From: a virus
Lineage: Duplodnaviria > Heunggongvirae > Uroviricota > Caudoviricetes
DNA length: 10,218 bases
IMG/VR virus record: IMGVR_UViG_2548876953_000015
Strand: one strand, 5' to 3'
Shown here one piece after another: positions 1 to 10,218 of the stretch. Numbering within the stretch: the first letter of the stretch is position 1; the number at the start of each line of letters is the position of its first letter. The notes beneath the pieces are model-generated. The model was not told where the DNA came from. It saw nothing but the letters and a program-made list of their open reading frames with translations, and did not search any database. The position numbers were made by a program, and so were the translations under genes.

Positions 1-622
1 TTGTCTGGGGACATTTTAGAATGGTTCAAAGGGGACATTACAGCTTGGTGTTAACAATAGCCTGCTTCTCCTTGCCTTTCGGCACGTAAGAGGCTAACCT
101 ACATATGTCTAGCATGAAATTGGCCTCAGATTAATGTTAAGCGTCTTGCAGGACGCGTAATGTTAACTGGGGCTTTTCTCTATCTGCCGTTGGTGTTCAT
201 GCCCGAGGCAGATAGCCTCAAGCACCCGCAGCCATTCTACTTAACTACCGTTACCTCGCCAATGTGAAATCAGTCAGAAAGGCGATCCATAAGAACAATA
301 GCAAGACAATAAATCGCCATTACAGCCGTAATAGCCAGCGCACATTTGAGAACCAGCACCACAACCTCCTGTATTGGACGTAGACCAGTCCTGATGAATA
401 TGAGGCTGTCTCGTCAGTGATTCAATACAACTATTGGGTATAGTTTCTCTGATTTTTTCTGTGGAAATGGGGCACAACCACTAGTCACCACCAGCACTTC
501 TTTTAATACGCAAAGTCCGACACAAGCTAACCTTCTAGTCCGCTTTGAGCGAAAAACAGCCATAATTTAGTGCCACGTATATAATGATAGAGCTATTCAA
601 GCTAGCAATTCACATGTAAAAA

Positions 623-651
623 TTCAGAGGGTAGAAGCACATAGTTATAAA
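623..651 (+). promoter_or_regulatory. Putative sigma70 promoter (TTCAGA-17 bp-TATAAA) upstream of the 595-aa gene
   Basis: Seen in sequence: -35-like ttcaga at 623..628, 17-bp spacer, -10-like tataaa at 646..651, about 80 bp upstream of the ATG at 733. A perfect tataat hexamer also lies at 580..585 but has no good -35. Hexamer matching by eye only. Confidence 0.2.
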
Positions 652-691
652 TGTTGGCTCCATCGACAAATTGCGGTCTCAAGTACATTTA

Positions 692-712
692 TTAATGTTG
701 CCCCCGCATTAA
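692..712. promoter_or_regulatory. Inverted repeat TTAATG-N9-CATTAA just upstream of the RBS of the 595-aa gene (possible operator)
   Basis: Seen in sequence: ttaatg at 692..697 and cattaa at 707..712, with a GC-rich 9-bp spacer. It ends 10 bp before the Shine-Dalgarno aaggtga (722..728). Confidence 0.3.
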
Positions 713-732
713 CAAATCATCAAGGTGACGAC

Positions 733-2520
733 ATGGACGATATTAATATCAGCCTCGACGAACTTAACACTATTGATTTATCCCCCTTAATCCAGAGTAA
801 GCTGCCAGTTACCTGCTTTGATATCACAAAGTATCTTTCTAGCCTAGGTGATGGAAGAGCGGAGATAAGACTGCTAACCCATATTTGCGGTTTTCACTTT
901 CGTCCCGAAAATCCACAGGTACCATTTGGTCCGTGCTTTCAAAGCAGCCAAGGTAGATCTGCAATTCCGGATGACATTAACGGGTTGTCGCTGGAGGTAC
1001 TTTCTCAATTTTGCCCGACGATAGAGCTACCCGAACTTCAAGCTCGTATTGCTGATACACTTTGGGTTCGTAAAATTGGTGGAATCCGTTTTCCTTTGCT
1101 GGCAGTCCGTGCTTATTATGCGTCCAGTATAGCTATTATGACATCGCAAGGGACGTGGGTTAGTGCTTTAGAACGCCTAGAGCGTGCGCTTAGGCTGTGT
1201 TGTTTTTTTCGAAAGCATACTGATTTCAGGGATGAATTTGATCAGCTTTCGGCACATCTACTAGCAGAGTATGAACGTACCAGAGAACAAGGCGATTCAC
1301 CTTATCCGCTGCGACTCCTGCAACTCGATATCGACTGTAAAGTGAGTGAGCCATCTTTTATTGCCCAGGAACTCCTGTTTCTGACAAAAAACTATCTGGC
1401 TCAAAAATTATTTTCATTTGCCGTCGATGCCTGTAAAACCGCAATCCCGATTGCGAATAGGTGCTGTGACAGAGATACACAGTTTGAATTCTGGCGGCTT
1501 CTTGCCGATACACATCTGGAAGAGTCAAAATTCCAAGATGGCGGTATGATTTCGGCAGCCTGCATGCAGAATGCTATTGAAGCACTGGCTAATATTCCAG
1601 GAACCCGAATAGAACGTCTTGCGCTGTATGAAGAAATGCGTGATTACCAAATCGAATCCCGTCACCAGATGTCTATCCTTCAGTCTCCCCCTCAAGATAT
1701 TAGTGAGATTGTCCATCAAGCCAAGAGTCGGGTAGTCGGAAGAGATTTGTTTGATATGGTTTTCAGACTTGCGATGCTGGTCTGTCGGCCAACCAGCATT
1801 GAGAGACTTAAGGCTCAAGCAATAGAACAAAAGGCCAACAGCATAGCTTGGATGTTTGGATCAACACATATTGATCATGAGGGAATGACACTTGCTCGCA
1901 TACCCGCAGGATTGGGGATTGATGATGCAAATGGGGCAGTTATTTGGCCCATAATGATGACGAGAATGCGTATCGACCATGAGTTGGCAGTAGCTGGGCA
2001 AATTATTCCTGCTACAGATGAGATCACAATGAAATATCCAATCTCGGAGGCGTTTTTTCGCGATATGTTCATCAATCATCCCTTCATCCCGTTTGGGCAT
2101 GAAGAGTTTTTCATCAAGGGTATGGTTTGCGGTTTCAATGGAGATTTTATGACGGCATGCCACGTGTTGATTCCCCAGATCGAAAATAGTCTGAGATATG
2201 TGGCTAAAATTAAAGGTGAGGAACCATCGCAGCTTCACGGGGACGGTTCGCAAGAGCGAAATGGACTCAAGGGATTACTAGATAATCCACTGATTATTGA
2301 AGCTTTCGGCGTAGACATAATTGGCAATCTTCAGGCCTTACTGGTAGATAAAATCTATGGTGATTTACGAAATCAACTAGCTCACGGATATGTGCCTGCC
2401 GGTTACTACAATCAACCTCCCTGCATTTTTGCATGGTGGCTTGTATTGCACATTCTAATGAACCCTACGGCGAGATACTGGCAAGCCACTTATGGCCAAG
2501 AGAGTGAGGCTCAGACTTAA
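733..2520 (+). CDS. Hypothetical 595-aa protein; candidate HEPN-like nuclease or abortive-infection cargo (family not recognised)
   Basis: Seen in sequence: uninterrupted 595-codon ORF with ATG at 733 and a good RBS (aaggtga, 5-6 nt spacer). It is convergent with the neighbouring prophage operon and looks AT-richer than the dic genes by eye. Near the C-terminus is D-L-R-N-Q-L-A-H-G (R546 to H551, nt 2368..2385), which matches the R-N-x3-H form of the HEPN Rx4-6H motif. The family assignment is inference; only the ORF itself is secure. Confidence 0.85.
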   Translation: MDDINISLDELNTIDLSPLIQSKLPVTCFDITKYLSSLGDGRAEIRLLTHICGFHFRPENPQVPFGPCFQSSQGRSAIPDDINGLSLEVLSQFCPTIELPELQARIADTLWVRKIGGIRFPLLAVRAYYASSIAIMTSQGTWVSALERLERALRLCCFFRKHTDFRDEFDQLSAHLLAEYERTREQGDSPYPLRLLQLDIDCKVSEPSFIAQELLFLTKNYLAQKLFSFAVDACKTAIPIANRCCDRDTQFEFWRLLADTHLEESKFQDGGMISAACMQNAIEALANIPGTRIERLALYEEMRDYQIESRHQMSILQSPPQDISEIVHQAKSRVVGRDLFDMVFRLAMLVCRPTSIERLKAQAIEQKANSIAWMFGSTHIDHEGMTLARIPAGLGIDDANGAVIWPIMMTRMRIDHELAVAGQIIPATDEITMKYPISEAFFRDMFINHPFIPFGHEEFFIKGMVCGFNGDFMTACHVLIPQIENSLRYVAKIKGEEPSQLHGDGSQERNGLKGLLDNPLIIEAFGVDIIGNLQALLVDKIYGDLRNQLAHGYVPAGYYNQPPCIFAWWLVLHILMNPTARYWQATYGQESEAQT

Positions 2521-2617
2521 AGTGAATAAGTTTACGAAGTTGGCACTTCCGGATGCATGTCCATATGAGTTGAGGCGATTTGGTTAATAAGGTTGAGTGC
2601 TGCTGAAATTATTCGAT

Positions 2618-2641
2618 GTCCGCTTTTGGCACAAAGCGGAC
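2618..2641. terminator. Stem-loop (9-bp stem, 6-nt loop) between the convergent 595-aa and 133-aa genes; possible weak bidirectional terminator
   Basis: Seen in sequence: gtccgcttt / tggcac / aaagcggac. There is no clean U-tract on either strand, so terminator function is uncertain. Confidence 0.3.
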
Positions 2642-2738
2642 AACCACGCCAGATCTACCCTGTGCCATGAAAAATGAGAATGTCAATTCACTCCTGAACT
2701 AATGCTTTTTAATCTAGTAACGTCTAAAATACCTAACA

Positions 2739-3140
2739 TTATCCCTGATAAAATGCCAGTATGCGCTGCATAACTTCACTCATCCGGCACTCGCGACAGA
2801 TTATGTTTAGGCGACTGTCGTAGCGACGTATTTCTCCATCAGGTAACGACCAGATAAGGTCCGGATCAACCACAGCTGTTTTCTTCACCTTTGCCCTCGA
2901 GAGTTTTTTGCGGGCGTTTTGCCAGTCCTTACGCGCCTGTTCAGACGGGAATAACCCGTAGCCGGAGTTGTATACATCGCCACTGGCTACCAGCTCTCTG
3001 GCAAGAACGCTCATCAGATATCTAGTCGCACCTGTTTTAGCTTCCAGTTGCCGTAACGTCTCACGACCGCTCTGGCGCACGAGTTCCACCACCTGCCCTT
3101 TAATTTTTTCCCGCTCTTCTTGTGTAAAAACTTTTGCCAC
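2739..3140 (-). CDS. Hypothetical 133-aa basic protein, distal gene of the prophage replication operon
   Basis: Seen in sequence: ORF with a GTG start at 3140 preceded by a strong Shine-Dalgarno (minus-strand aaggggga, about 5 nt spacer). It starts 40 bp downstream of the replication-gene stop on the same strand. No family recognised. Confidence 0.7.
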   Translation of the reverse strand: MAKVFTQEEREKIKGQVVELVRQSGRETLRQLEAKTGATRYLMSVLARELVASGDVYNSGYGLFPSEQARKDWQNARKKLSRAKVKKTAVVDPDLIWSLPDGEIRRYDSRLNIICRECRMSEVMQRILAFYQG

Positions 3141-3180
3141 AAGTCCCCCTTAAAATTACCTCATGACCTGAAATCAAAAC

Positions 3181-4045
3181 TTATCCTCTGAAACCAGGCG
3201 GAATTTCTGTATTCGGTTCAGAAATATGATTAACACAACGCTGTACAGGTGAACGCCCCAGGCGGATGACCAGTTCGTCCCATTTTTCGCGGAGCTTTGA
3301 CGGGCTCATGATGTTTTTTACCCAGAATGGATCCCGCTGTACCCGACCAAACATTTCACAAATTTGTCTGTGGCTTCTGCCATCCAGCATCCGCATTGTG
3401 CGCACATCATTGGCCCAGACAGTCCAGTTAGGCTCTTTTGGTCGCATGATCTCGCCATCATCACTGGCGGCCTGTTCGTAGAGACCCACGATCCGCCCCC
3501 ATATCCACTGCGCACACGCCAGATCCTCCTGGCTACCCCACTGGCGTTTTTTCGCACTAAACACAACTGCGCCAGGGTGCCGGATTAAAAAATCCTGTTC
3601 AGCCGTCTGCGGGTCCGGTTGCGAAGCTTCCGGACGAAAAGTGTTTTTATTCTCTGTAGTAATCTCTGTTGTATTCTCTGTAGGATCATCGGGCCATTTT
3701 GACCCGATGACATTGGGTCGTTTTGAACCAATGGAGCGTTTCATTTTGACCTCTTCCATCGTGTCATTTTGACCTGATGGAGCGGCGCATTTTGAACCGA
3801 TGGATTCGCTCAATTTGCCATCATCTAAAAGCTCGCTCCCATAGTTAATCGTGTAGAAATTGGTCATATCGCGCTTTGATTTATTGAGCTTTTCACAACG
3901 CAAAAGCCCCAGCGTTTTCAGACTTGCAAACGCGCGCTTTAACGTTGACTCTGACCAGAATGGGAACTGTTCCAGCCATTGTTCCGTTGTGTTGTAAATC
4001 CAGCGAACACCATCACATTCCATGCCGGAATTGGTATCTCTCAAC
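3181..4045 (-). pseudogene. Replication-initiator gene (phage O-like / replisome organiser), C-terminal 285-codon fragment cut off by the IS903-type insertion
   Basis: Seen in sequence: the minus-strand frame reads ...PLRDTNSGMECDGVRW... through to the stop at 3181..3183. The track ORF 3181..4134 only runs on into the IS left end. It is frame-continuous with the N-terminal fragment at 5103..5212 once the IS and one duplication copy are removed. Confidence 0.8.
4037..4045. repeat. Left 9-bp target-site duplication TCTCTCAAC of the IS903-type insertion
   Basis: Seen in sequence: tctctcaac at 4037..4045, identical to 5103..5111. IS903-group elements make 9-bp duplications (established knowledge). 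Confidence 0.9.
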
Positions 4046-4063
4046 GGCTTTGTTGAATAAATC
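4046..4063. repeat. IS903-type left terminal inverted repeat (GGCTTTGTTGAATAAATC)
   Basis: Seen in sequence: the 18-bp end sequence at 4046..4063 is the exact reverse complement of 5085..5102. Confidence 0.9.
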
Positions 4064-4122
4064 GAACTTTTGCTGAGTTGAAGGATCAGATCACGTATCT
4101 TCCCGACAACGCAGACCGTTCC

Positions 4123-5046
4123 GTGGCAAAGCAAAAGTTCAAAATCACCAACTGGCCCACCTACAATAAAGCCCTCATCAACCGTGGCTCCATAACTTTC
4201 TGGCTGGATGATGAGGCGATTCAGGCCTGGTATGAGTCAGCAACACCTTCTTCACGAGGCAGACCTCAGCGCTATTCTGACCTTGCCATCACGACTGTGC
4301 TGGTCATTAAACGCGTATTCAGGCTGACCCTGCGCGCTGCGCAGGGCTTTATTGATTCCATTTTTTCTCTGATGAACGTTCCGCTACGCTGCCCGGATTA
4401 CAGCTGTGTCAGCAGGCGGGCAAAGTCGGTTAATGTCAGTTTCAAAACGCCCACCCGGGGTGAAATCGCACACCTGGTAATTGATTCCACCGGGCTGAAG
4501 GTCTTCGGTGAAGGCGAGTGGAAAGTCAAAAAGCATGGCCAGGAACGCCGCCGTATCTGGCGTAAGCTGCATCTCGCCGTTGACAGTAAAACACATGAAA
4601 TCATCTGCGCTGACCTGTCGCTGAACAACGTTACGGACTCAGAGGCCTTCCCCGGGTTAATCCGGCAAACCCACCGGAAAATCAGGTCAGCCGCCGCCGA
4701 TGGCGCTTACGATACCCGGCTATGTCACGATGAACTGCGGCGTAAGAAAATCAGCGCGCTTATCCCTCCCCGAAAAGGTGCGGGTTACTGGCCCGGTGAA
4801 TATGCAGACCGTAACCGTGCAGTGGCTAATCAGCGAATGACCGGGAGTAATGCGCGGTGGAAATGGACAACAGATTACAACCGTCGCTCGATAGCGGAAA
4901 CGGCGATGTACCGGGTAAAACAGCTGTTCGGGGGTTCACTGACACTGCGTGACTACGATGGTCAGGTTGCAGAGGCTATGGCCCTGGTACGAGCGCTGAA
5001 CAAAATGACGAAAGCAGGTATGCCTGAAAGCGTGCGTATTGCCTGA
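4123..5046 (+). CDS. IS903-type transposase (DDE, IS5 family), about 307 aa from a GTG start
   Basis: Seen in sequence: the frame is open from TTG at 4078 to the stop at 5046. The translation (…KFKITNWPTYNKALINRGS…RGRPQRYSDLAITTVLVIKRVFRLTLRAAQGF…) is the IS903 transposase as I recall it. GTG at 4123 gives the 307-aa length I remember for that protein; the exact start is uncertain. Confidence 0.88.
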   Translation: MAKQKFKITNWPTYNKALINRGSITFWLDDEAIQAWYESATPSSRGRPQRYSDLAITTVLVIKRVFRLTLRAAQGFIDSIFSLMNVPLRCPDYSCVSRRAKSVNVSFKTPTRGEIAHLVIDSTGLKVFGEGEWKVKKHGQERRRIWRKLHLAVDSKTHEIICADLSLNNVTDSEAFPGLIRQTHRKIRSAAADGAYDTRLCHDELRRKKISALIPPRKGAGYWPGEYADRNRAVANQRMTGSNARWKWTTDYNRRSIAETAMYRVKQLFGGSLTLRDYDGQVAEAMALVRALNKMTKAGMPESVRIA

Positions 5047-5084
5047 AAACACAACCCGCTACGGGGGAGACTTACCCGAAATCT

Positions 5085-5102
5085 GATTTATTCAACAAAG
5101 CC
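5085..5102. repeat. IS903-type right terminal inverted repeat
   Basis: Seen in sequence: gatttattcaacaaagcc, the reverse complement of the left end. Confidence 0.9.
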
Positions 5103-5111
5103 TCTCTCAAC
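5103..5111. repeat. Right 9-bp target-site duplication TCTCTCAAC
   Basis: Seen in sequence: identical to 4037..4045. Confidence 0.9.
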
Positions 5112-5212
5112 CAGTAATGCAACTGCTGCAACACAATGGCTTCATTTAAGCCAATCTTCATCGCAAGCTGTGTGTTTATAACCAGTGGGCGTTCAGCAAA
5201 AAGAAGGCTCAT
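5103..5212 (-). pseudogene. Replication-initiator gene, N-terminal fragment (ATG at 5212; alternative TTG at 5266)
   Basis: Seen in sequence: the minus-strand frame reads MSLLFAERPLVINTQLAMKIGLNEAIVLQQLHYWLR, then enters the IS and stops at 5072 after 9 IS-encoded codons. The N-terminus resembles winged-helix phage replication initiators (from memory). ATG at 5212 has a GGA-type RBS; it overlaps the upstream gene by 20 bp. Confidence 0.75.
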
Positions 5213-5714
5213 AATTCCATCCAGCTTTTTGTTGGTATTGCTGTCGATACGCAAGTTTGAAAGCAATTGCTTTTTCTATAAGTTCGTCAGTTTCACGATC
5301 CACTACGGCAGGATCAGCAAAAAGCAGTCCGGACTCCACCACATCGCCATATTCTTTGTTTAACCCGGCGATCATGTACGTGATGCTTTTTCCGTCACTA
5401 ATTTCACGATACAACCTGAAATCATTAATCCGGATAGCCTCCATAATTGCAGGCACTAGCGCCGTGAACTTTTCACGCTTATCCCTGGTGTCGATAGCCT
5501 TCCAGCGTTCGAATATCTTCACTCGATTAACGCCAAGCGCTCGCTGATCAACCGCGCCACCTTCATCTGTGACACGCTGAACATCGATGTTCGGGCGCTC
5601 TTTCAAAGCCCAGAATGCTTCAGTGATTAATATCGTCGCCTGCTCCTGTGTCATTCCTGGTCGACATATCCAGGCATCCAGAGCCTCACGAGCCTGTTCA
5701 GGAGTGATTTTCAT
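5193..5714 (-). CDS. YdaT/CII-like prophage protein, 173 aa, between cro-like and replication genes
   Basis: Seen in sequence: ORF with ATG at 5714. It sits in the cII position of a lambdoid early-right operon. A central segment (…REKFTALVPAIMEAIR…) resembles the Rac prophage YdaT as I remember it (weak, from memory). Confidence 0.7.
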   Translation of the reverse strand: MKITPEQAREALDAWICRPGMTQEQATILITEAFWALKERPNIDVQRVTDEGGAVDQRALGVNRVKIFERWKAIDTRDKREKFTALVPAIMEAIRINDFRLYREISDGKSITYMIAGLNKEYGDVVESGLLFADPAVVDRETDELIEKAIAFKLAYRQQYQQKAGWNYEPSFC

Positions 5715-5925
5715 TGTTCAACCGCCCCGCCCGCTTCGTCTTACGATATTCGTCATAAACCTTGGGATCATACAGAAGCTCCCCGCCAGATGCCTCCTGT
5801 AGACGCATCGCGCGACCTTCAGGAACCAGTATCCCCCAAGCAGCAACACTTGCCAGTCTCACTCCTGCGGCATTGGCAAGCTTTGTTTTGCTGCCAAAAA
5901 AAGTAATTGCGTCAACTTTAAGCAT
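5698..5925 (-). CDS. dicC: Cro-like regulator, DicC-like (75 aa from ATG 5925; the track ORF starts one codon earlier at TTG 5928)
   Basis: Seen in sequence: small ORF divergent from the dicA-like gene, with a strong Shine-Dalgarno (minus-strand agggggc) about 5 nt before the ATG and an operator-like palindrome just upstream. Size and position match DicC of Qin-type prophages (established knowledge). Confidence 0.8.
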   Translation of the reverse strand: MLKVDAITFFGSKTKLANAAGVRLASVAAWGILVPEGRAMRLQEASGGELLYDPKVYDEYRKTKRAGRLNNENHS

Positions 5926-5939
5926 CAAAGCCCCCTCTT

Positions 5940-5955
5940 GTTAGACTTTTCTAAC
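5940..5955. promoter_or_regulatory. Operator-like perfect palindrome GTTAGA-N4-TCTAAC in the dicC-dicA intergenic region
   Basis: Seen in sequence: gttagacttttctaac, about 15 bp upstream of the dicC start and 50 bp upstream of the dicA start. The same half-sites recur at 6451..6466. Inferred to be a DicA/DicC operator. Confidence 0.5.
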
Positions 5956-6005
5956 ATTATTGTGCGCGGGATATCTAAGTCAAGAAAAATTAGAATTACC
6001 TAACT

Positions 6006-6413
6006 ATGGATACAAGAACCCTAGGCCAGCGAGTTCTGGCGCGACGAAAAGAATTACGCTTAACACAACGAGAAGCTGCGCGCCTCGCTGGAGTTGCTCA
6101 CGTCACAATTTCACAATGGGAAAGAGACGAAACCCAGCCAGTCGGAAAACGATTGTTTGCTTTAGCGGATGCTCTGAAGTGCTCACCTACATGGCTAATG
6201 TTTGGTGACGAAGACAAGGCACCAGTGCCTGCACAAGAACTTCATGTGGAAACAGAGCTAACTCCCAACCACAAAGAATTGATCGAATTATTCGATGCTC
6301 TTCCATCTTCCGAGCAGGAAGCCTTGCTGTCTGAAATGCGCGCAAGAGTAGAAAACTTCAACAAACTCTTCGAAGAAATGCTTAAAGCGCGTAAAAATAA
6401 ATCAATAAAATAA
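6006..6413 (+). CDS. dicA: Prophage repressor DicA (HTH_XRE family, 135 aa)
   Basis: Seen in sequence: 135-aa ORF with an N-terminal helix-turn-helix (…LRLTQREAARLAGVAHVTISQWERDETQP…). The C-terminus …MRARVENFNKLFEEMLKARK… closely resembles K-12 DicA as I recall it, and the length is the same (135 aa). Confidence 0.88.
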   Translation: MDTRTLGQRVLARRKELRLTQREAARLAGVAHVTISQWERDETQPVGKRLFALADALKCSPTWLMFGDEDKAPVPAQELHVETELTPNHKELIELFDALPSSEQEALLSEMRARVENFNKLFEEMLKARKNKSIK

Positions 6414-6450
6414 CATTCTTTTCAAGTGATTAGTTGCGCCCACTCTTTTT

Positions 6451-6466
6451 GTTAGACCAATCTAAC
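6451..6466. promoter_or_regulatory. Second GTTAGA-N4-TCTAAC palindrome, downstream of dicA and upstream of ydfA (candidate operator of the dicB operon promoter)
   Basis: Seen in sequence: gttagaccaatctaac has the same half-sites as 5940..5955. DicA is known to repress the dicB operon (established knowledge); the site assignment is inference. Confidence 0.45.
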
Positions 6467-6485
6467 AAAAACACTTGCCTATCAT

Positions 6486-6501
6486 GTTAGGTTATTCTAA
6501 A
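6486..6501. promoter_or_regulatory. Third, degenerate copy of the palindrome (GTTAGG-N4-TCTAAA)
   Basis: Seen in sequence: gttaggttattctaaa, one mismatch per half-site, 20 bp to the right of the second copy. Confidence 0.3.
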
Positions 6502-6580
6502 TTACTTTCCATCAAGACACCGCACGGTGTTCTCAGCAAACAGTTCCGCTACCCCGGCGTTAAGGGGAAATGAGGTCAGC

Positions 6581-6736
6581 ATGGATACTATCGATCTTGG
6601 CAACAGCGAATCTCTGGTATGTGGCATGTTCCCCAACCAGGACGGCACGTTCACCGCGATGACGTATACCAAAAGCAAAACGTTTAAAACCGAAAATGGT
6701 GCCCGTCGCTGGCTGGAAAGAAACTCAGGTGAGTGA
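6581..6736 (+). CDS. ydfA: YdfA-like small prophage protein (51 aa)
   Basis: Seen in sequence: ATG at 6581 with Shine-Dalgarno gaggt 4 nt upstream; translation MDTIDLGNSESLVCGMFPNQDGTFTAMTYTKSKTFKTENGARRWLERNSGE. It matches Qin-prophage YdfA as I recall it. The track ORF 6527..6736 is an upstream extension without an RBS. Confidence 0.8.
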   Translation: MDTIDLGNSESLVCGMFPNQDGTFTAMTYTKSKTFKTENGARRWLERNSGE

Positions 6737-6737
6737 T

Positions 6738-7313
6738 ATGGATTTCGACACAATCATGGAAAAGGCTTACGAAGAATACTTCGAAGGCCTTGCCGAAGGC
6801 GAAGAAGCTCTCAGCTTCAGTGAGTTTAAACAGGCACTCAGAATAAGAATGTGCTCTCACAATGACGCGGAGCACAAATATGAGAAGCAAAATCAGACCG
6901 CAGAAAATTTTGTTCTGGAACCCGGAGAAACGCTTTTCAAAATTCCCGTTACGTGCCCCATTTGCGGTTTTACATCAGAAGAACTTGACGACTCCTGTAA
7001 CAATCAGGAAACAACCAAGTATGTCGAAGATGATACCGAGTGCGCACGAAGAACGATTATATCCACGAGTCCAAACTCCAGGGCCAATAAATCTCACTTT
7101 GAGAGGGTGATTAATCCACTCCCCCAAACCAATAAAAAAGATGCCGGAGGACAAAAAACCCAATGGAACAACGGGATATCTGTCAAAAAAAGACGTTCCA
7201 TTAAAGACAAACAACGCAGCGCCAACAACTGTAAGCGCTTTATACCAGTAATCAATTTTCATGTTCTTAAGCGGATTTATTGGTGGTTGCGACATTGCTT
7301 AATGAATCCTTAA
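6738..7313 (+). CDS. ydfB-position ORF, open for 191 codons in this window (acidic N-terminus, CPICGF motif); 3' extent uncertain
   Basis: Seen in sequence: ATG at 6738 lies 1 nt after the ydfA stop, with Shine-Dalgarno aggtga upstream (translational coupling). The frame stays open to 7313. The distal half is K/N/R-rich with rare codons (aga, agg, ata, cga) and may not all be coding. Confidence 0.45.
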   Translation: MDFDTIMEKAYEEYFEGLAEGEEALSFSEFKQALRIRMCSHNDAEHKYEKQNQTAENFVLEPGETLFKIPVTCPICGFTSEELDDSCNNQETTKYVEDDTECARRTIISTSPNSRANKSHFERVINPLPQTNKKDAGGQKTQWNNGISVKKRRSIKDKQRSANNCKRFIPVINFHVLKRIYWWLRHCLMNP

Positions 7314-7510
7314 AACTGTGGTGATTTTAAGGATACCACCTCGCCTGACGTGGTTAAAAGCAGGCACACAACACGAAAGCGCACGGCGAAGTTCGTCTCA
7401 CTGTACGGTGTCGTTAAATTTAATTCGACCGTGCGCTTCCGGTTGTGGCAACCCGCAAAATGGCGCGGCGGTAAGTATGGCGGGGTTATTCCTTCCCCGT
7501 TGAGGACACC

Positions 7511-7547
7511 GGGTTGTCAGGTTGACCATACGCTTAAGTGACAACCC
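7511..7547 (+). other. RNA stem-loop (9-bp stem gggttgtca / tgacaaccc, 19-nt loop) 26 nt upstream of DicF; candidate processing site of the DicF precursor
   Basis: Seen in sequence: perfect 9-bp inverted repeat. DicF is known to be cut from a longer operon transcript by RNase III and RNase E (established knowledge); assigning this hairpin to that step is inference. Confidence 0.4.
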
Positions 7548-7572
7548 CGCTGCAACGCCCTCTGTTATCAAT

Positions 7573-7630
7573 TTTCTGGTGACGTTTGGCGGTATCAGTT
7601 TTACTCCGTGACTGCTCTGCCGCCGTTTTT
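7573..7630 (+). ncRNA. dicF: DicF small RNA (Hfq-dependent, ftsZ-targeting)
   Basis: Seen in sequence: tttctggtgacgtttggcggtatcagttttactccgtgactgctctgccgccgttttt matches the DicF sequence as I remember it almost base for base. It ends in a hairpin plus U-tract and sits between the ydfB/C position and dicB as in Qin. The 5' end is approximate (+/- 2 nt). Confidence 0.8.
7588..7630 (+). terminator. Intrinsic terminator forming the DicF 3' end (ggcgg…ccgcc stem followed by TTTTT)
   Basis: Seen in sequence: GC stem arms at 7588..7592 and 7620..7624, U-tract at 7626..7630. Confidence 0.55.
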
Positions 7631-7799
7631 AAAGTGAATTTTGTTATGCGGTGAATGCGGCTAAGCGCACGCGGAACAGTTAAAACCAAAAACAGTGTTA
7701 TGGGTGGATTCTCTGTATCCGACGTTAATTGTTAACTGGTTAACGTCACCTGGAGGCACCAGGCACTGCATCACAAAATTTATTGTTGAGGACGCGATA

Positions 7800-7988
7800 A
7801 TGAAAACGTTATTACCAAACGTTAATACGTCTGAAGGTTGTTTTGAAATTGGTGTCACTATCAGTAACCCTGTATTTACTGAAGATGCCATTAACAAGAG
7901 AAAACAAGAACGGGAGCTATTAAATAAAATATGCATTGTTTCAATGCTGGCTCGTTTACGTCTGATGCCAAAAGGATGTGCACAATGA
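7800..7988 (+). CDS. dicB: Cell-division inhibitor DicB (62 aa)
   Basis: Seen in sequence: ATG at 7800 with Shine-Dalgarno gagga 8 nt upstream; translation MKTLLPNVNTSEGCFEIGVTISNPVFTEDAINKRKQERELLNKICIVSMLARLRLMPKGCAQ matches DicB as I recall it. The track ORF 7695..7988 is an unsupported N-terminal extension. Confidence 0.88.
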   Translation: MKTLLPNVNTSEGCFEIGVTISNPVFTEDAINKRKQERELLNKICIVSMLARLRLMPKGCAQ

Positions 7989-8176
7989 ATTCAGCATTTG
8001 CGCTTGTTCTGACAGTTTTTCTTGTTTCCGGAGTGCCAGTTGATATTGCAGTCAGTGTTCACAGGACAATGCAGGAGTGTATGACTGCAGCAACCGAACA
8101 GAAAATTCCCGGTAACTGTTACCCGGTCGATAAAGTTATTAACCAGGATAATATCGAAATCCCGGCAGGTCTTTAA
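7985..8176 (+). CDS. ydfD: YdfD-like small membrane lysis protein (63 aa)
   Basis: Seen in sequence: ATG at 7985 overlaps the dicB stop (ATGA). Translation MNSAFALVLTVFLVSGVPVDIAVSVHRTMQECMTAATEQKIPGNCYPVDKVINQDNIEIPAGL has an N-terminal hydrophobic helix and matches YdfD of Qin as I recall it. Confidence 0.85.
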   Translation: MNSAFALVLTVFLVSGVPVDIAVSVHRTMQECMTAATEQKIPGNCYPVDKVINQDNIEIPAGL

Positions 8177-8269
8177 AACAGTTCCGTAATAAATATCCGG
8201 TTTCATTCTTATATGCCAGCAATGGCAGGGATTTGTTCATCCTTAAATCTGTCATGAGGTTAAAACAAA

Positions 8270-10218
8270 ATGAGTAAAGTCTTTATTTGCGCCGCTATTC
8301 CTGACGAACTGGCAACAAGGGAAGAAGGCGCTGTGGCTGTAGCCACAGCCATTGAAGCTGGCGACGAACGCCGTGCTCGAGCAAAATTTCACTGGCAATT
8401 CCTGGAACATTATCCGGCTGCTCAGGACTGCGCTTATAAATTTATTGTCTGCGAGGATAAACCTGGCATACCCCGCCCTGCCCTCGATTCATGGGATGCT
8501 GAATATATGCAGGAAAACCGCTGGGATGAGGAGTCTGCTTCTTTTGTCCCGAATGAGACTGAATCCGATCCGATGAACGTCACTTTTGACAAGCTGGCCC
8601 CTGAAGTACAGAACGCTGTCATGGTTAAGTTCGACACATGTGAAAACATCACCGTTGATATGGTGATTAGCGCGCAGGAATTGTTGCAGGAAGACATGGC
8701 AACATTCGACGGACATATCGTTGAAGCGTTGATGAAAATGCCAGAAGTTAACGCCATGTATCCGGAGCTTAAGTTGCACGCCATTGGGTGGGTTAAGCAT
8801 AAATGTATTCCTGGTGCTAAATGGCCCGAAATTCAGGCAGAGATGCGCATCTGGAAAAAACGTCGCGAAGGTGAACGCAAGGAAACCGGAAAATACACGT
8901 CTGTTGTTGATCTCGCACGCGCCAGAGCCAATCAACCGTACACTGAAAATTCAACAGGAAAAATCAGCCCGGTCATTGCTGCCATTCATCGCGAATACAA
9001 GCAGACATGGAAAACACTGGATGACGAACTGGCCTACGCTCTCTGGCCTGGTGATGTGGATGCCGGAAACATTGACGGCAGCATCCATCGCTGGGCAAAA
9101 AATGAAGTTATCGACAACGACCGCGAAGACTGGAAGCGTATCTCGGCATCAATGCGCAAACAGCCTGATGCCCTTCGCTACGACCGCCAGACTATTTTTG
9201 GCCTTGTCCGTGAGCGTCCGATCGACATTCACAAAGATCCCGTAGCACTGAACAAATATATCTGCGAATACCTGACGACAAAGGGCGTGTTTGAGAATGA
9301 AGAAACAGACCTGGGCACTGTTGATGTTCTCCAGTCATCAGAAACACAAACTGATGCAGTGGAAACTGAGGTATCTGATATCCCAAAAAATGAAACCGCG
9401 CCGGAAGCTGAACCATCTGTAGAGCGTGAGGGGCCGTTCTATTTCCTCTTCGCAGATAAGGACGGAGAAAAATACGGTCGCGCAAACAAACTTTCTGGTC
9501 TGGATAAGGCACTGGCTGCTGGCGCCACTGAAATCACAAAAGAAGAATATTTTGCCCGAAAAAATGGCACATACACGGGCTTACCGCAAAATGTAGATAC
9601 CGCTGAAGATTCAGAACAACCAGAGCCGATAAAAGTTACCGCTGACGAAGTAAACAAAATTATGCAGGCAGCCAATATCAGCCAGCCTGACGCTGATAAG
9701 TTGCTTGCTGCATCACGTGGTGAATTTGTTGAAGGGATTAGTGACCCGAATGATCCGAAATGGGTTAAGGGGATCCAGACCCGCGATTCTGTGAACCAGA
9801 ACCAGCATGAATCGGAACGGAACTACCAAAAAGCGGAACAAAACAGTCCAAATGCGTTACAAAACGAGCCAGTAACGAAACAGCCTGAACCAGTAGCGCA
9901 ACAGGAAGTGGAAAAAGTCTGCACCGCCTGCGGTCAGACCGGCGGCGGCAACTGCCCTGATTGTGGCGCGGTGATGGGCGACGCAACATACCAGGAAACA
10001 TTCGATGAAGAGTATCAGGTTGAAGTTCAGGAAGATGATCCGGAGGAAATGCAAGGCGCTGAACATCCACACAAGGAGAACACTGGCGGCAATCAGCATC
10101 ACAATAGCGATAATGAAACTGGCGAGACGGCAGATCACCCAATTAAGGTGAACGGTCATCACGAAATCACATCCACCAGCAGGACGTGTGACCATCTAAT
10201 GATCGACCTTGAAACCAT
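8270..10218 (+). CDS. Large ydfE-position prophage protein, at least 649 aa, 3' end beyond the window
   Basis: Seen in sequence: ATG at 8270 with Shine-Dalgarno tgaggt 9 nt upstream, 94 bp after ydfD. I translated it line by line and found no stop through 10218; it is missing from the ORF track only because it has no stop in the window. It contains a CxxC-x7-CxxC knuckle (CTACGQTGGGNCPDC, nt 9920..9964) and an acidic, His-rich tail. Function unknown. Confidence 0.8.
   Translation, partial: MSKVFICAAIPDELATREEGAVAVATAIEAGDERRARAKFHWQFLEHYPAAQDCAYKFIVCEDKPGIPRPALDSWDAEYMQENRWDEESASFVPNETESDPMNVTFDKLAPEVQNAVMVKFDTCENITVDMVISAQELLQEDMATFDGHIVEALMKMPEVNAMYPELKLHAIGWVKHKCIPGAKWPEIQAEMRIWKKRREGERKETGKYTSVVDLARARANQPYTENSTGKISPVIAAIHREYKQTWKTLDDELAYALWPGDVDAGNIDGSIHRWAKNEVIDNDREDWKRISASMRKQPDALRYDRQTIFGLVRERPIDIHKDPVALNKYICEYLTTKGVFENEETDLGTVDVLQSSETQTDAVETEVSDIPKNETAPEAEPSVEREGPFYFLFADKDGEKYGRANKLSGLDKALAAGATEITKEEYFARKNGTYTGLPQNVDTAEDSEQPEPIKVTADEVNKIMQAANISQPDADKLLAASRGEFVEGISDPNDPKWVKGIQTRDSVNQNQHESERNYQKAEQNSPNALQNEPVTKQPEPVAQQEVEKVCTACGQTGGGNCPDCGAVMGDATYQETFDEEYQVEVQEDDPEEMQGAEHPHKENTGGNQHHNSDNETGETADHPIKVNGHHEITSTSRTCDHLMIDLET

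What the first reader, a model, noticed from the sequence alone, without database searches (positions are those of the whole stretch)
3181..5266. IS903-type element precisely interrupts the prophage replication-initiator gene; the original ORF can be rebuilt in frame
A complete 1057-bp IS903-type element (18-bp perfect terminal repeats) sits at 4046..5102, flanked by identical 9-bp duplications TCTCTCAAC (4037..4045 and 5103..5111). Removing the IS and one duplication copy joins the two minus-strand fragments into one continuous 321-codon gene (…QLHYWLR|DTNSGMECDG…). The intact duplications and undamaged IS suggest a recent event. It leaves the prophage replication-defective while keeping the immunity region and the dicB-operon genes. 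The truncated N-terminal product (36 native residues plus 9 IS-encoded) could still be made.
Basis: seen in the sequence. Interest (0 to 1): 0.55.

Follow-up and report, generated by a model that had tools for sequence, protein, structure and literature searches.

The report
IS903B insertion splitting prophage replication gene
A common 1-kb jumping gene (IS903B) has landed cleanly inside the DNA-replication starter gene of a Qin-type dormant virus in an E. coli chromosome, almost certainly disabling that gene; this is a real but ordinary step in prophage decay.

Summary
Window 4046-5102 is a complete 1057-bp IS903B with perfect 18-bp terminal repeats. It is 100% identical to annotated plasmid copies and is flanked by a 9-bp duplication, TCTCTCAAC. 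Removing the IS and one duplicate copy restores a 321-codon minus-strand gene identical to E. coli DEC9B WP_000054488. The unoccupied site occurs in 1724 of 5426 complete E. coli genomes.

The gene is a lambda-O-like replication initiator:
- It matches PHROG 391 at 7.5e-92.
- Five iteron-like repeats plus an AT-rich tract lie inside its coding sequence.
- It follows cro-like and cII-like genes.
- Isolated phages carry 96-97% identical copies.

The IS enters at codon 37, inside the winged-helix domain. Loss of replication is inferred, not shown.

Only one complete genome (bovine strain 7_33_46A) shares the left junction. There, 8.4 kb to the right of the IS is deleted, so the window looks like the precursor state.

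IS disruption of prophage genes is routine, so interest is low. One side lead: the protein ends in a DnaT-like tail, and no P- or DnaC-type loader gene follows it.

The parts
4046..5102 (+). Complete IS903B insertion sequence (1057 bp). Orientation is given by its transposase, which is antisense to the interrupted phage gene.
   Evidence: 100% identical over its full length to plasmid copies annotated 'IS5-like element IS903B family transposase'. 100% identical to the copy in NZ_CP074819.1.
4046..4063 (.). Left terminal inverted repeat (IRL), 18 bp: GGCTTTGTTGAATAAATC
   Evidence: Exact reverse complement of 5085-5102.
5085..5102 (.). Right terminal inverted repeat (IRR), 18 bp
4123..5046 (+). 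Intact transposase gene: 307 aa from GTG 4123. PGAP and the ORF list use TTG 4078, giving 322 aa.
   Evidence: ORF list. Pfam DDE_Tnp_1_5 3.4e-40 and DDE_Tnp_1 6.6e-33. NCBIfam transpos_IS5_2 6.2e-107. The 307-aa start is from my knowledge of IS903.
4037..4045 (.). Left copy of the 9-bp target-site duplication TCTCTCAAC
   Evidence: The target is single-copy in empty-site genomes.
5103..5111 (.). Right copy of the 9-bp target-site duplication TCTCTCAAC
5072..5212 (-). 5' fragment of the O-like initiator gene. The ATG is at 5212, with native codons 1-36. It reads into IRR and stops at 5074-5072, giving a possible 46-aa peptide.
   Evidence: The start matches the annotated start of WP_000054487/8. 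It overlaps the end of the ydaT/cII-like gene by 20 nt.
3181..4045 (-). 3' fragment of the O-like initiator gene (codon 37 to the stop at 3183-3181). An IS-internal TTG at 4134 is in frame with it, giving a 317-aa hybrid ORF that is probably not expressed.
   Evidence: No outward promoter-like site at the IS end.
3687..3825 (.). Iteron-like array inside the initiator gene. Five copies of CATTTTGAMC lie at 3695, 3719, 3742, 3765 and 3788 (spacing 23-24 bp), each within a partly dyad-symmetric 23-bp unit. This is the putative prophage origin and it is intact.
   Evidence: the repeat finder D1/D2. TRF period 23. Motif scan. The part of the array compared (the two downstream units plus the AT-rich tract) is nearly identical in phages HannyBb and PhiR42_1. 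It encodes the disordered linker 110-174 of the model.
3640..3686 (.). AT-rich tract with ATTCTCTGTAG repeats, directly downstream of the iterons in the gene's direction. Putative unwinding region.
   Evidence: GC 0.37 for 3640-3699. Repeats D7 and TRF period 12.
2739..3140 (-). Downstream 133-aa DUF977 / 'Ren-like' gene. It is last in the same early-right transcription unit and exposed to polarity from the IS.
   Evidence: Pfam DUF977 6e-27. PHROG 142 1.9e-44.
5193..5714 (-). YdaT-family / cII-like gene directly upstream of the initiator
   Evidence: Pfam YdaT_toxin. PHROG 163 'CII-like transcriptional activator' 2.3e-40.
5698..5928 (-). dicC / Cro-like gene, first gene of the rightward early operon
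   Evidence: Pfam P22_Cro 2.7e-11. Annotated DicC in relatives.
5956..5983 (-). pR-like sigma-70 promoter (TTGACT-16-AATAAT), presumed to drive dicC, ydaT, the O gene and DUF977
   Evidence: Consensus scan, 10/12. Function is inferred.
6006..6413 (+). dicA / cI-like repressor gene (immunity region retained)
   Evidence: Pfam HTH_3 1.5e-14.
7574..8176 (+). Retained dicB operon end: DicF sRNA 7574-7625, dicB 7800-7988, ydfD 7985-8176
   Evidence: Rfam DicF 72.5 bits. ORFs. Annotation of relatives.

Best explanation
A copy of IS903B (IS5 family) transposed into codon 37 of the lambda-O-like replication initiator gene of a Qin/mEp460-type lambdoid prophage and made the usual 9-bp target duplication. 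The insertion falls inside the N-terminal winged-helix domain. It separates the first 36 residues from the rest of that domain, the iteron-encoding linker, the C-terminal domain and the DnaT-like tail.

Transcripts from the pR-like promoter now meet a stop codon 10 codons into the IS. They must then cross about 1 kb of untranslated sequence antisense to the transposase gene. I therefore infer that no functional initiator is made, and that the downstream DUF977 gene is probably under-expressed through polarity. The origin (iterons plus AT-rich tract) stays intact, so in principle it could still fire if a matching initiator were supplied in trans.

The initiator is not needed in the repressed lysogen, so the insertion is expected to be neutral or mildly beneficial to the host. 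It grounds the prophage while the immunity genes, the dicB operon, sok and a candidate defence gene are kept. The event is recent and confined to a narrow lineage. In a sister genome the same IS copy has since been associated with loss of 8.4 kb to its right.
For: SHOWN
- IS anatomy and the duplication.
- 100% identity to annotated IS903B copies.
- An intact DDE transposase.
- Empty site with a single-copy target and contiguous flanks, found in 1724 of 5426 genomes.
- The rebuilt protein is identical to WP_000054488.
- Gene order cro-like, cII-like, O-like, Ren-like.
- Isolated phages HannyBb, PhiR42_1 and mEp460_ev081 carry 96-97% identical full-length genes in the same order.
- The left junction is shared at 100% by 7_33_46A over window 57-5102. 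There the sequence jumps from the IS end to rspB codon 16, 8426 bp away in ATCC 25922 coordinates.

INFERRED
- Loss of initiator function.
- Polarity on DUF977: no outward promoter-like site at the IS end.
- Neutrality in the lysogen.
Against: - No experiment shows that this prophage could replicate before the insertion. In the sister genome its capsid/protease gene is annotated as frameshifted, and Qin-type prophages are often already defective.
- The initiator has no Pfam or NCBIfam match.
- The structural model is only medium confidence: mean pLDDT 60.8, from a shallow 20-sequence alignment.
- An in-frame hybrid ORF starts at an IS-internal TTG (4134), and an internal Met42 exists. An N-terminally altered protein is therefore not strictly excluded.
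- The complete occupied site, with both junctions, was found in no other sequence searched.
Confidence: 0.9

Rival explanations
1. The insertion is functionally irrelevant because the prophage was already dead. On this view the IS simply landed in decaying, unselected DNA, and nothing about replication changed.
For: - Qin-type prophages carry several pseudogenes in relatives: cspF, ydfB, and a frameshifted capsid/protease fusion in 7_33_46A.
- Other IS elements sit nearby in relatives: IS2, an IS3-family element, and an IS903-group element in ydaT.
- Frameshift alleles of the same initiator gene are common: P0013 has 91 member sequences.
- The left end of the window abuts an ISNCY remnant.
Against: - The rebuilt gene has no other lesion and is identical to intact alleles.
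- 7_33_46A still has an almost complete head, tail and lysis gene set.
- Near-identical genes function in isolated phages.
- The capsid frameshift has not been shown to be present in the window's source.
Confidence: 0.3
2. The structure is not a simple transposition. It could be an assembly chimera, or the product of recombination between two IS903B copies, with the 9-bp repeat arising by coincidence.
For: The right junction (IS end plus TCTCTCAAC plus the 5' gene fragment) was found in no complete E. coli genome, no GTDB representative genome and no metagenome contig.
Against: - The two flanks are contiguous in hundreds of genomes and overlap by exactly the 9-bp target. Recombination between unrelated IS copies would not give that.
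- The chance of an identical 9-mer at both ends is about 4e-6.
- The left junction is independently present in a finished genome.
Confidence: 0.02
3. The interrupted gene is not an origin-binding initiator. It could instead be a DnaD/DnaT-like primosomal adaptor or a transcription factor, in which case the repeats inside it are only protein-coding repeats (IGSK motifs).
For: - There is no Pfam or NCBIfam hit.
- Some PHROG hits are labelled 'DnaD-like helicase loader' or 'primosomal protein'.
- The C-terminal tail resembles DnaT.
Against: - The best PHROG match by far is O-like initiation.
- The repeats have internal dyad symmetry and 23-24 bp phasing, and an AT-rich tract follows them, as at lambda ori. 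They also lie in the region coding a disordered linker, as in lambda O. The lambda comparison is from my own knowledge.
- The position after the cII-like gene matches lambda O.
Confidence: 0.08

Closest known systems
IS903 / IS903B (IS5 family, IS903 group), e.g. the ends of Tn903 and the chromosomal and plasmid copies common in Klebsiella and E. coli
   Same: 1057 bp, 18-bp perfect terminal repeats, 9-bp target duplication and a single DDE transposase. It is 100% nucleotide-identical to copies annotated IS903B. Gene inactivation by IS903B is widely reported, for example in wbaZ and cirA of K. pneumoniae (PMC9769513, PMC13618097).
   Different: Nothing in the element itself differs. The target flanks match the published preferred motif WTTYA-N9-TRAAW (PMC2577343, Table 1) at only 5 of 10 positions, so this is not a preferred site.
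Bacteriophage lambda O protein and ori-lambda (initiator gene containing its own origin)
   Same: The gene follows the cro-like and cII-like genes in the pR operon. The protein has an N-terminal DNA-binding domain, a flexible linker and a C-terminal domain. Iterons with dyad symmetry, followed by an AT-rich tract, lie inside the coding sequence. It matches a PHROG 'O-like' family. The lambda features are from established knowledge.
   Different: There is no match to any Pfam model, including the lambda O-type family. There are five repeats spaced 23-24 bp apart. No P-type or DnaC-type loader gene follows; the next gene is DUF977/Ren-like. The C-terminus carries a DnaT-like IPPGFRG tail.
Qin (Kim) cryptic prophage of E. 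coli K-12 and the dicA-dicC-dicF-dicB region
   Same: It shares dicA-like and dicC-like genes, ydfA, DicF, dicB and ydfD. Relatives are integrated between ydfJ and rspB/ynfA.
   Different: From my knowledge, the K-12 Qin has lost the replication genes. This variant kept a complete initiator gene until the IS hit, and it carries a DUF7380/DUF4209 (PDC-S39) gene where K-12-like variants have relBE-ydfV-flxA.
IS-mediated adjacent deletion (two-step: insertion, then deletion)
   Same: The window shows step 1 (insertion with duplication). Sister genome 7_33_46A has the identical IS and left flank but has lost 8426 bp starting exactly at the right IS end, with no duplication. Adjacent deletions are described as common for IS903 and as multistep events in the LTEE (PMC11708052).
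   Different: The ancestor-descendant relation is inferred from two genomes, not observed. Homologous recombination with a second IS903B copy once present in rspB would give the same product.

Membership tests
IS903B (IS5 family, IS903 group) | Length about 1057 bp with perfect 18-bp terminal inverted repeats | tested here: met
   4046-5102 is 1057 bp; IRL equals the reverse complement of IRR at 18/18.
IS903B (IS5 family, IS903 group) | 9-bp direct target duplication | tested here: met
   TCTCTCAAC on both sides. It is single-copy at empty sites.
IS903B (IS5 family, IS903 group) | One DDE transposase of the IS5 type, uninterrupted | tested here: met
   Pfam DDE_Tnp_1_5 and DDE_Tnp_1. NCBIfam transpos_IS5_2 357 bits against a cut-off of 140.
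IS903B (IS5 family, IS903 group) | Near-identity in nucleotide sequence to the named isoform | tested here: met
   100% over 1057 bp to six plasmid copies, five of them annotated IS903B by PGAP (H4 is unannotated); 1093 records at >=99%. It was not compared with the ISfinder reference entry itself.
IS903B (IS5 family, IS903 group) | Preferred palindromic target WTTYA-N9-TRAAW (a preference, not a requirement) | tested here: inconclusive
   The flanks TGGTA / CAGTA match 5 of 10 positions. Motif from PMC2577343, Table 1.
Lambda-O-type phage replication initiator | Sequence match to a curated initiator family | tested here: inconclusive
   PHROG 391 'replication initiation O-like' at 7.5e-92, but no Pfam and no NCBIfam hit at E<=0.01.
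Lambda-O-type phage replication initiator | N-terminal winged-helix DNA-binding domain | tested here: met
Lambda-O-type phage replication initiator | Origin (iterons plus AT-rich tract) inside its own coding sequence | tested here: met
   Five phased repeats at 3695-3797 and an AT-rich tract at 3640-3686. The compared downstream part is nearly identical in isolated phages. Binding was not tested.
Lambda-O-type phage replication initiator | Position in the early-right operon after the cro and cII analogues | tested here: met
   The order is dicC/cro-like, ydaT/cII-like, O-like. The same order occurs in HannyBb and PhiR42_1.
Lambda-O-type phage replication initiator | Adjacent partner gene for a helicase loader (lambda P, DnaC-like or DnaB-like) | tested here: not met
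   The next gene is DUF977/Ren-like, then a methyltransferase in the phages. No loader-like gene is present.
Lambda-O-type phage replication initiator | Demonstrated origin binding and requirement for replication | not testable with these tools
   Needs EMSA or footprinting and phage genetics.
Qin-type (dicB-operon) lambdoid prophage | dicA/dicC immunity pair with DicF, dicB and ydfD | tested here: met
   Pfam HTH_3 and P22_Cro. Rfam DicF 72.5 bits. DicB and YdfD ORFs. Annotation of 99.7-99.9% identical relatives.
Qin-type (dicB-operon) lambdoid prophage | Integration between ydfJ and rspB/ynfA | not testable with these tools
   The window does not reach the prophage ends. Relatives ATCC 25922 and 7_33_46A are integrated there.

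The most novel reading that the evidence does not exclude
The interrupted gene may represent a P-less class of lambdoid initiators. On this reading an origin-binding winged-helix protein recruits the host DnaB-DnaC machinery itself, through a C-terminal tail copied from the restart protein DnaT. The tail here is ...VNHISEPNTEIPPGFRG, against DnaT's ...[17 protein letters not shown]. The IPxGFRG tip is conserved in homologues even where the preceding linker differs. That would explain why no loader gene follows the initiator in viable phages of this type. The IS insertion would then uncouple origin recognition from a DnaT-mimic module.
Probability: 0.25. Interest if true: 0.5.

Novelty: already known. 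Interest (0 to 1): 0.17.

Why it matters
For the source strain, this Qin-type prophage very probably cannot start its own DNA replication. It is therefore likely locked in the chromosome while still supplying its repressor/immunity genes, DicF/DicB, sok and a candidate defence gene.

Together with strain 7_33_46A, the window gives a clean natural example of the two-step route by which an IS first splits an essential phage gene and is then associated with deletion of the neighbouring immunity and integration genes.

None of this is surprising to a specialist. It is useful for annotation: the two fragments should be called one pseudogene, and the 3687-3825 repeats a putative origin. It may also serve as a lineage marker.

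Tried and rejected
- Complete occupied site elsewhere. The whole-window search gave only 89%-coverage (empty-site) hits. The right-junction query found 0 of 5426 genomes. The exact 42-mer right junction was absent from GTDB representative genomes and from metagenome contigs. Only the left junction was found, once.
- P0013. I suspected this 279-aa cluster with 91 members was the gene call left by the IS. It is a C-terminal frameshift allele at an A-run, unrelated to the IS.
- Curated family for the initiator. Pfam, NCBIfam and a PDB sequence search gave none; the PDB search matched only the DnaT-like tail.
- Outward promoter. The scan found none at the IS left end that could drive the 3' fragment or DUF977. 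By eye, TTCAAC-17-CCAATT across the junction is too weak.
- Insertion hot spot. IS elements in close relatives lie elsewhere: IS2 upstream of the DUF4209 gene, an IS3-family element inside it, and an IS903-group element in ydaT. The initiator gene itself is therefore not a hot spot, and the target matches the IS903 preference only weakly.
- DnaT tail in the literature. I read the DnaT literature for a defined role of the extreme C-terminal tail. The papers read do not assign one.
Full report
**1. The observation**

Reading the window directly and checking it by script confirms every coordinate.
- 4046-5102 is 1057 bp.
- Its first 18 bases (GGCTTTGTTGAATAAATC) are the exact reverse complement of its last 18. 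Identity falls off immediately inside.
- TCTCTCAAC lies at 4037-4045 and again at 5103-5111, and the direct repeat does not extend further.
- The repeat finder reports the same terminal inverted repeat as its top inverted pair.
- The element holds one long ORF on the plus strand (4078-5046). It matches Pfam DDE_Tnp_1_5 and DDE_Tnp_1 and the NCBIfam IS5 equivalog (357 bits against a cut-off of 140).
- The whole 1057 bp is 100% identical to copies on several E. coli and Klebsiella plasmids that PGAP annotates as IS903B. At least 5000 plasmid records carry a relative.

**2. The empty site and the rebuilt gene**

- A megablast of the whole window against 5426 complete E. coli genomes gave best hits of 99.7-99.9% identity that all cover 89% of the query, i.e. 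everything except the IS.
- Pairwise BLAST to ATCC 25922 and EC1722-1 shows window 57-4045 and 5103-10218 aligning to adjacent stretches that overlap by exactly nine bases. The target is therefore single-copy there and the flanks are contiguous.
- A 404-bp query spanning the rebuilt junction is present at >=80% coverage in 1724 genomes, 786 of them at >=99% identity.
- After removing the IS and one duplicate copy, the minus strand reads through as 321 codons from the ATG at window 5212.
- The product is identical to WP_000054488 of strain DEC9B and differs at one residue from WP_000054487. Some RefSeq records name that protein 'phage replication protein O', and others call it 'hypothetical protein'.
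- A search of the 5.8-billion-protein collection found 4263 homologues at E<=1e-5, and full-length ones are 321-330 aa.

**3. What the interrupted gene is**

Pfam and NCBIfam give nothing. Four independent lines identify a lambda-O-like initiator.
- **Sequence family.** PHROG 391 'replication initiation O-like' matches residues 17-321 at 7.5e-92. Weaker hits go to other initiator, DnaD-like and primosomal PHROGs.
- **Structure.** An AlphaFold2 model of the 98%-identical cluster representative, built on a shallow 20-sequence alignment (mean pLDDT 60.8), shows four parts:
  - a helix/strand winged-helix domain at residues ~10-108;
  - a disordered linker at 110-174;
  - a helical domain at 180-297;
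  - a disordered tail at 298-321.

- **Origin-like repeats.** The DNA that encodes the linker contains five copies of CATTTTGAMC at 3695, 3719, 3742, 3765 and 3788.
  - They are spaced 23-24 bp apart, each within a partly palindromic 23-bp unit.
  - A tract of 37% GC with its own short repeats follows them in the direction of the gene.
  - This is the layout of ori-lambda inside gene O (established knowledge).
  - The overlapping part of the array is nearly identical in phages HannyBb and PhiR42_1.
- **Gene order.** The order is cI-like (dicA) | cro-like (dicC), cII-like (YdaT family), this gene, Ren-like (DUF977). The same order, with a 96-97% identical 321-aa gene, occurs in the isolated phages HannyBb, PhiR42_1 and mEp460_ev081.

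**4. What the insertion does (inference)**

- The IS enters between the second and third base of codon 37, at the end of predicted helix 22-37 of the winged-helix domain.
- The 5' fragment now reads 36 native residues, one hybrid Glu codon and nine IS-encoded residues before TAA at 5074-5072, giving 46 aa.
- The 3' fragment has no start of its own apart from an IS-internal TTG at 4134, which happens to be in frame, and Met42.
- The consensus scan found no outward promoter-like site at the IS end. The only good early promoter is TTGACT-16-AATAAT at 5983-5956 upstream of dicC.
- The transposase gene is antisense to the phage operon.
- I infer that no functional initiator is produced, and that DUF977 suffers polarity rather than activation.
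- The iterons stay intact, so the origin could respond to a matching initiator supplied in trans.
- The operon is repressed in a lysogen, so the insertion should cost the host nothing.
- Whether the prophage could replicate beforehand is unknown. The sister genome has a nearly complete structural and lysis gene set, but its capsid/protease gene is annotated as frameshifted.

**5. Age and relatives**

- Only one complete genome shares a junction: NZ_CP074819.1, strain 7_33_46A (bovine, Nebraska). It is 100% identical to window 57-5102 with no mismatch.
- In that genome the sequence to the right of the IS is rspB codon 16.
- Relative to ATCC 25922, 8426 bp are missing there. The lost segment holds the 5' initiator fragment, ydaT, dicC, dicA, the dicB operon, the exonuclease gene, xis, int and most of rspB.
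- The window therefore looks like the precursor (insertion with duplication) and 7_33_46A like a derivative. The likely route is IS903 adjacent deletion, which is described as common for this element (PMC11708052). Recombination with a second IS copy is the alternative.
- The perfect duplication, the intact transposase, and flanks 99.9% identical to empty-site genomes all fit a recent event.
- The target flanks match the published IS903 preference WTTYA-N9-TRAAW at only 5 of 10 positions (PMC2577343).
- IS elements in other relatives lie in other genes: IS2, an IS3-family element, and an independent IS903-group element in ydaT of strains E92 and E94. This is general IS bombardment of the prophage, not a hot spot in this gene.

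**6. Comparison with what is known, and novelty**

The element is IS903B itself. The gene belongs to a recognised, though poorly curated, family of O-like initiators. IS disruption of prophage genes followed by deletion is a textbook route of prophage decay. I rate the finding as already known in kind and of low interest. Its practical value is for annotation and as a lineage marker.

**7. The most novel lead, outside the finding proper**

- The last 20 residues of the initiator (VNHISEPNTEIPPGFRG) closely match the C-terminus of the host restart protein DnaT ([20 protein letters not shown]; PDB 2ru8, 6aep, 9zbt_D; E 0.003-0.008 with a 51-aa query).
- The IPxGFRG tip is kept in homologues whose preceding linker differs.
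- No P-like or DnaC-like loader gene follows the initiator, even in viable phages.
- A DnaT-mimicking recruitment tail would explain that, but nothing here tests it. The DnaT papers I read assign no specific role to the extreme tail.

Noticed in passing
window 1-227: Window 56-227 (minus strand) is a full sok antitoxin RNA (Rfam RF01794, 106.9 bits). The hokD coding sequence that follows it in ATCC 25922, DEC9B and 7_33_46A is absent. Homology to those genomes stops at base 57, the second base of the hokD start codon. Bases 1-56 instead match the sequence next to a truncated ISNCY/IS1202-like (ISEsa1-family) transposase pseudogene in ATCC 8739, E2865 and about 796 genomes. The source therefore differs from 7_33_46A here and may have the K-12-like relBE-hokD arrangement to the left, with sok orphaned.
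   Followed up: partly
window 3181-3250 (minus strand; last ~21 codons of the initiator gene): The C-terminal tail VNHISEPNTEIPPGFRG is nearly the same as the C-terminus of E. coli DnaT (PDB 2ru8, 6aep, 9zbt_D). The IPxGFRG tip is conserved across homologues. No helicase-loader gene follows the initiator in the window or in phages HannyBb and PhiR42_1.
   Followed up: partly
window 733-2520 (+): The 595-aa DUF7380/DUF4209 protein, on the strand opposite to the phage early operon, matches the PADLOC candidate defence family PDC-S39 (2e-102). It replaces the relBE-ydfV-flxA segment of K-12-like Qin variants, and relatives have it hit by IS2 (upstream) or an IS3-family element (inside).
   Followed up: partly
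L003 (NZ_CP074819.1) 9257/9258; corresponds to window 5102: In strain 7_33_46A the same IS903B copy is followed directly by rspB codon 16. Relative to ATCC 25922, 8426 bp are missing, including the immunity region, the dicB operon, xis, int and most of rspB. This is an IS-adjacent deletion or an IS-IS recombination product.
   Followed up: yes
L013 (NZ_CP119740.1, strain E94) 3780-5366: An independent IS903-group element (about 96.5% identical) splits the neighbouring ydaT/cII-like gene of the same prophage type in bovine strains E92 and E94 from China.
   Followed up: partly
window ~3300-3315 (T-run on the plus strand, codons FWVKN of the initiator): Frameshifted alleles of the same gene ending ...FWVKTS or ...FWVKKKTS exist in public assemblies (P0013 with 91 member sequences; P0024). 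They point to a slippery A-run or to homopolymer sequencing errors.
   Followed up: partly
window 2739-3140 (-): The DUF977 gene after the initiator is labelled 'Ren-like exclusion protein' by PHROGs (1.9e-44) and 'LygF' in one phage record. Its role in a replication module that lacks a loader gene is unclear.
   Followed up: no
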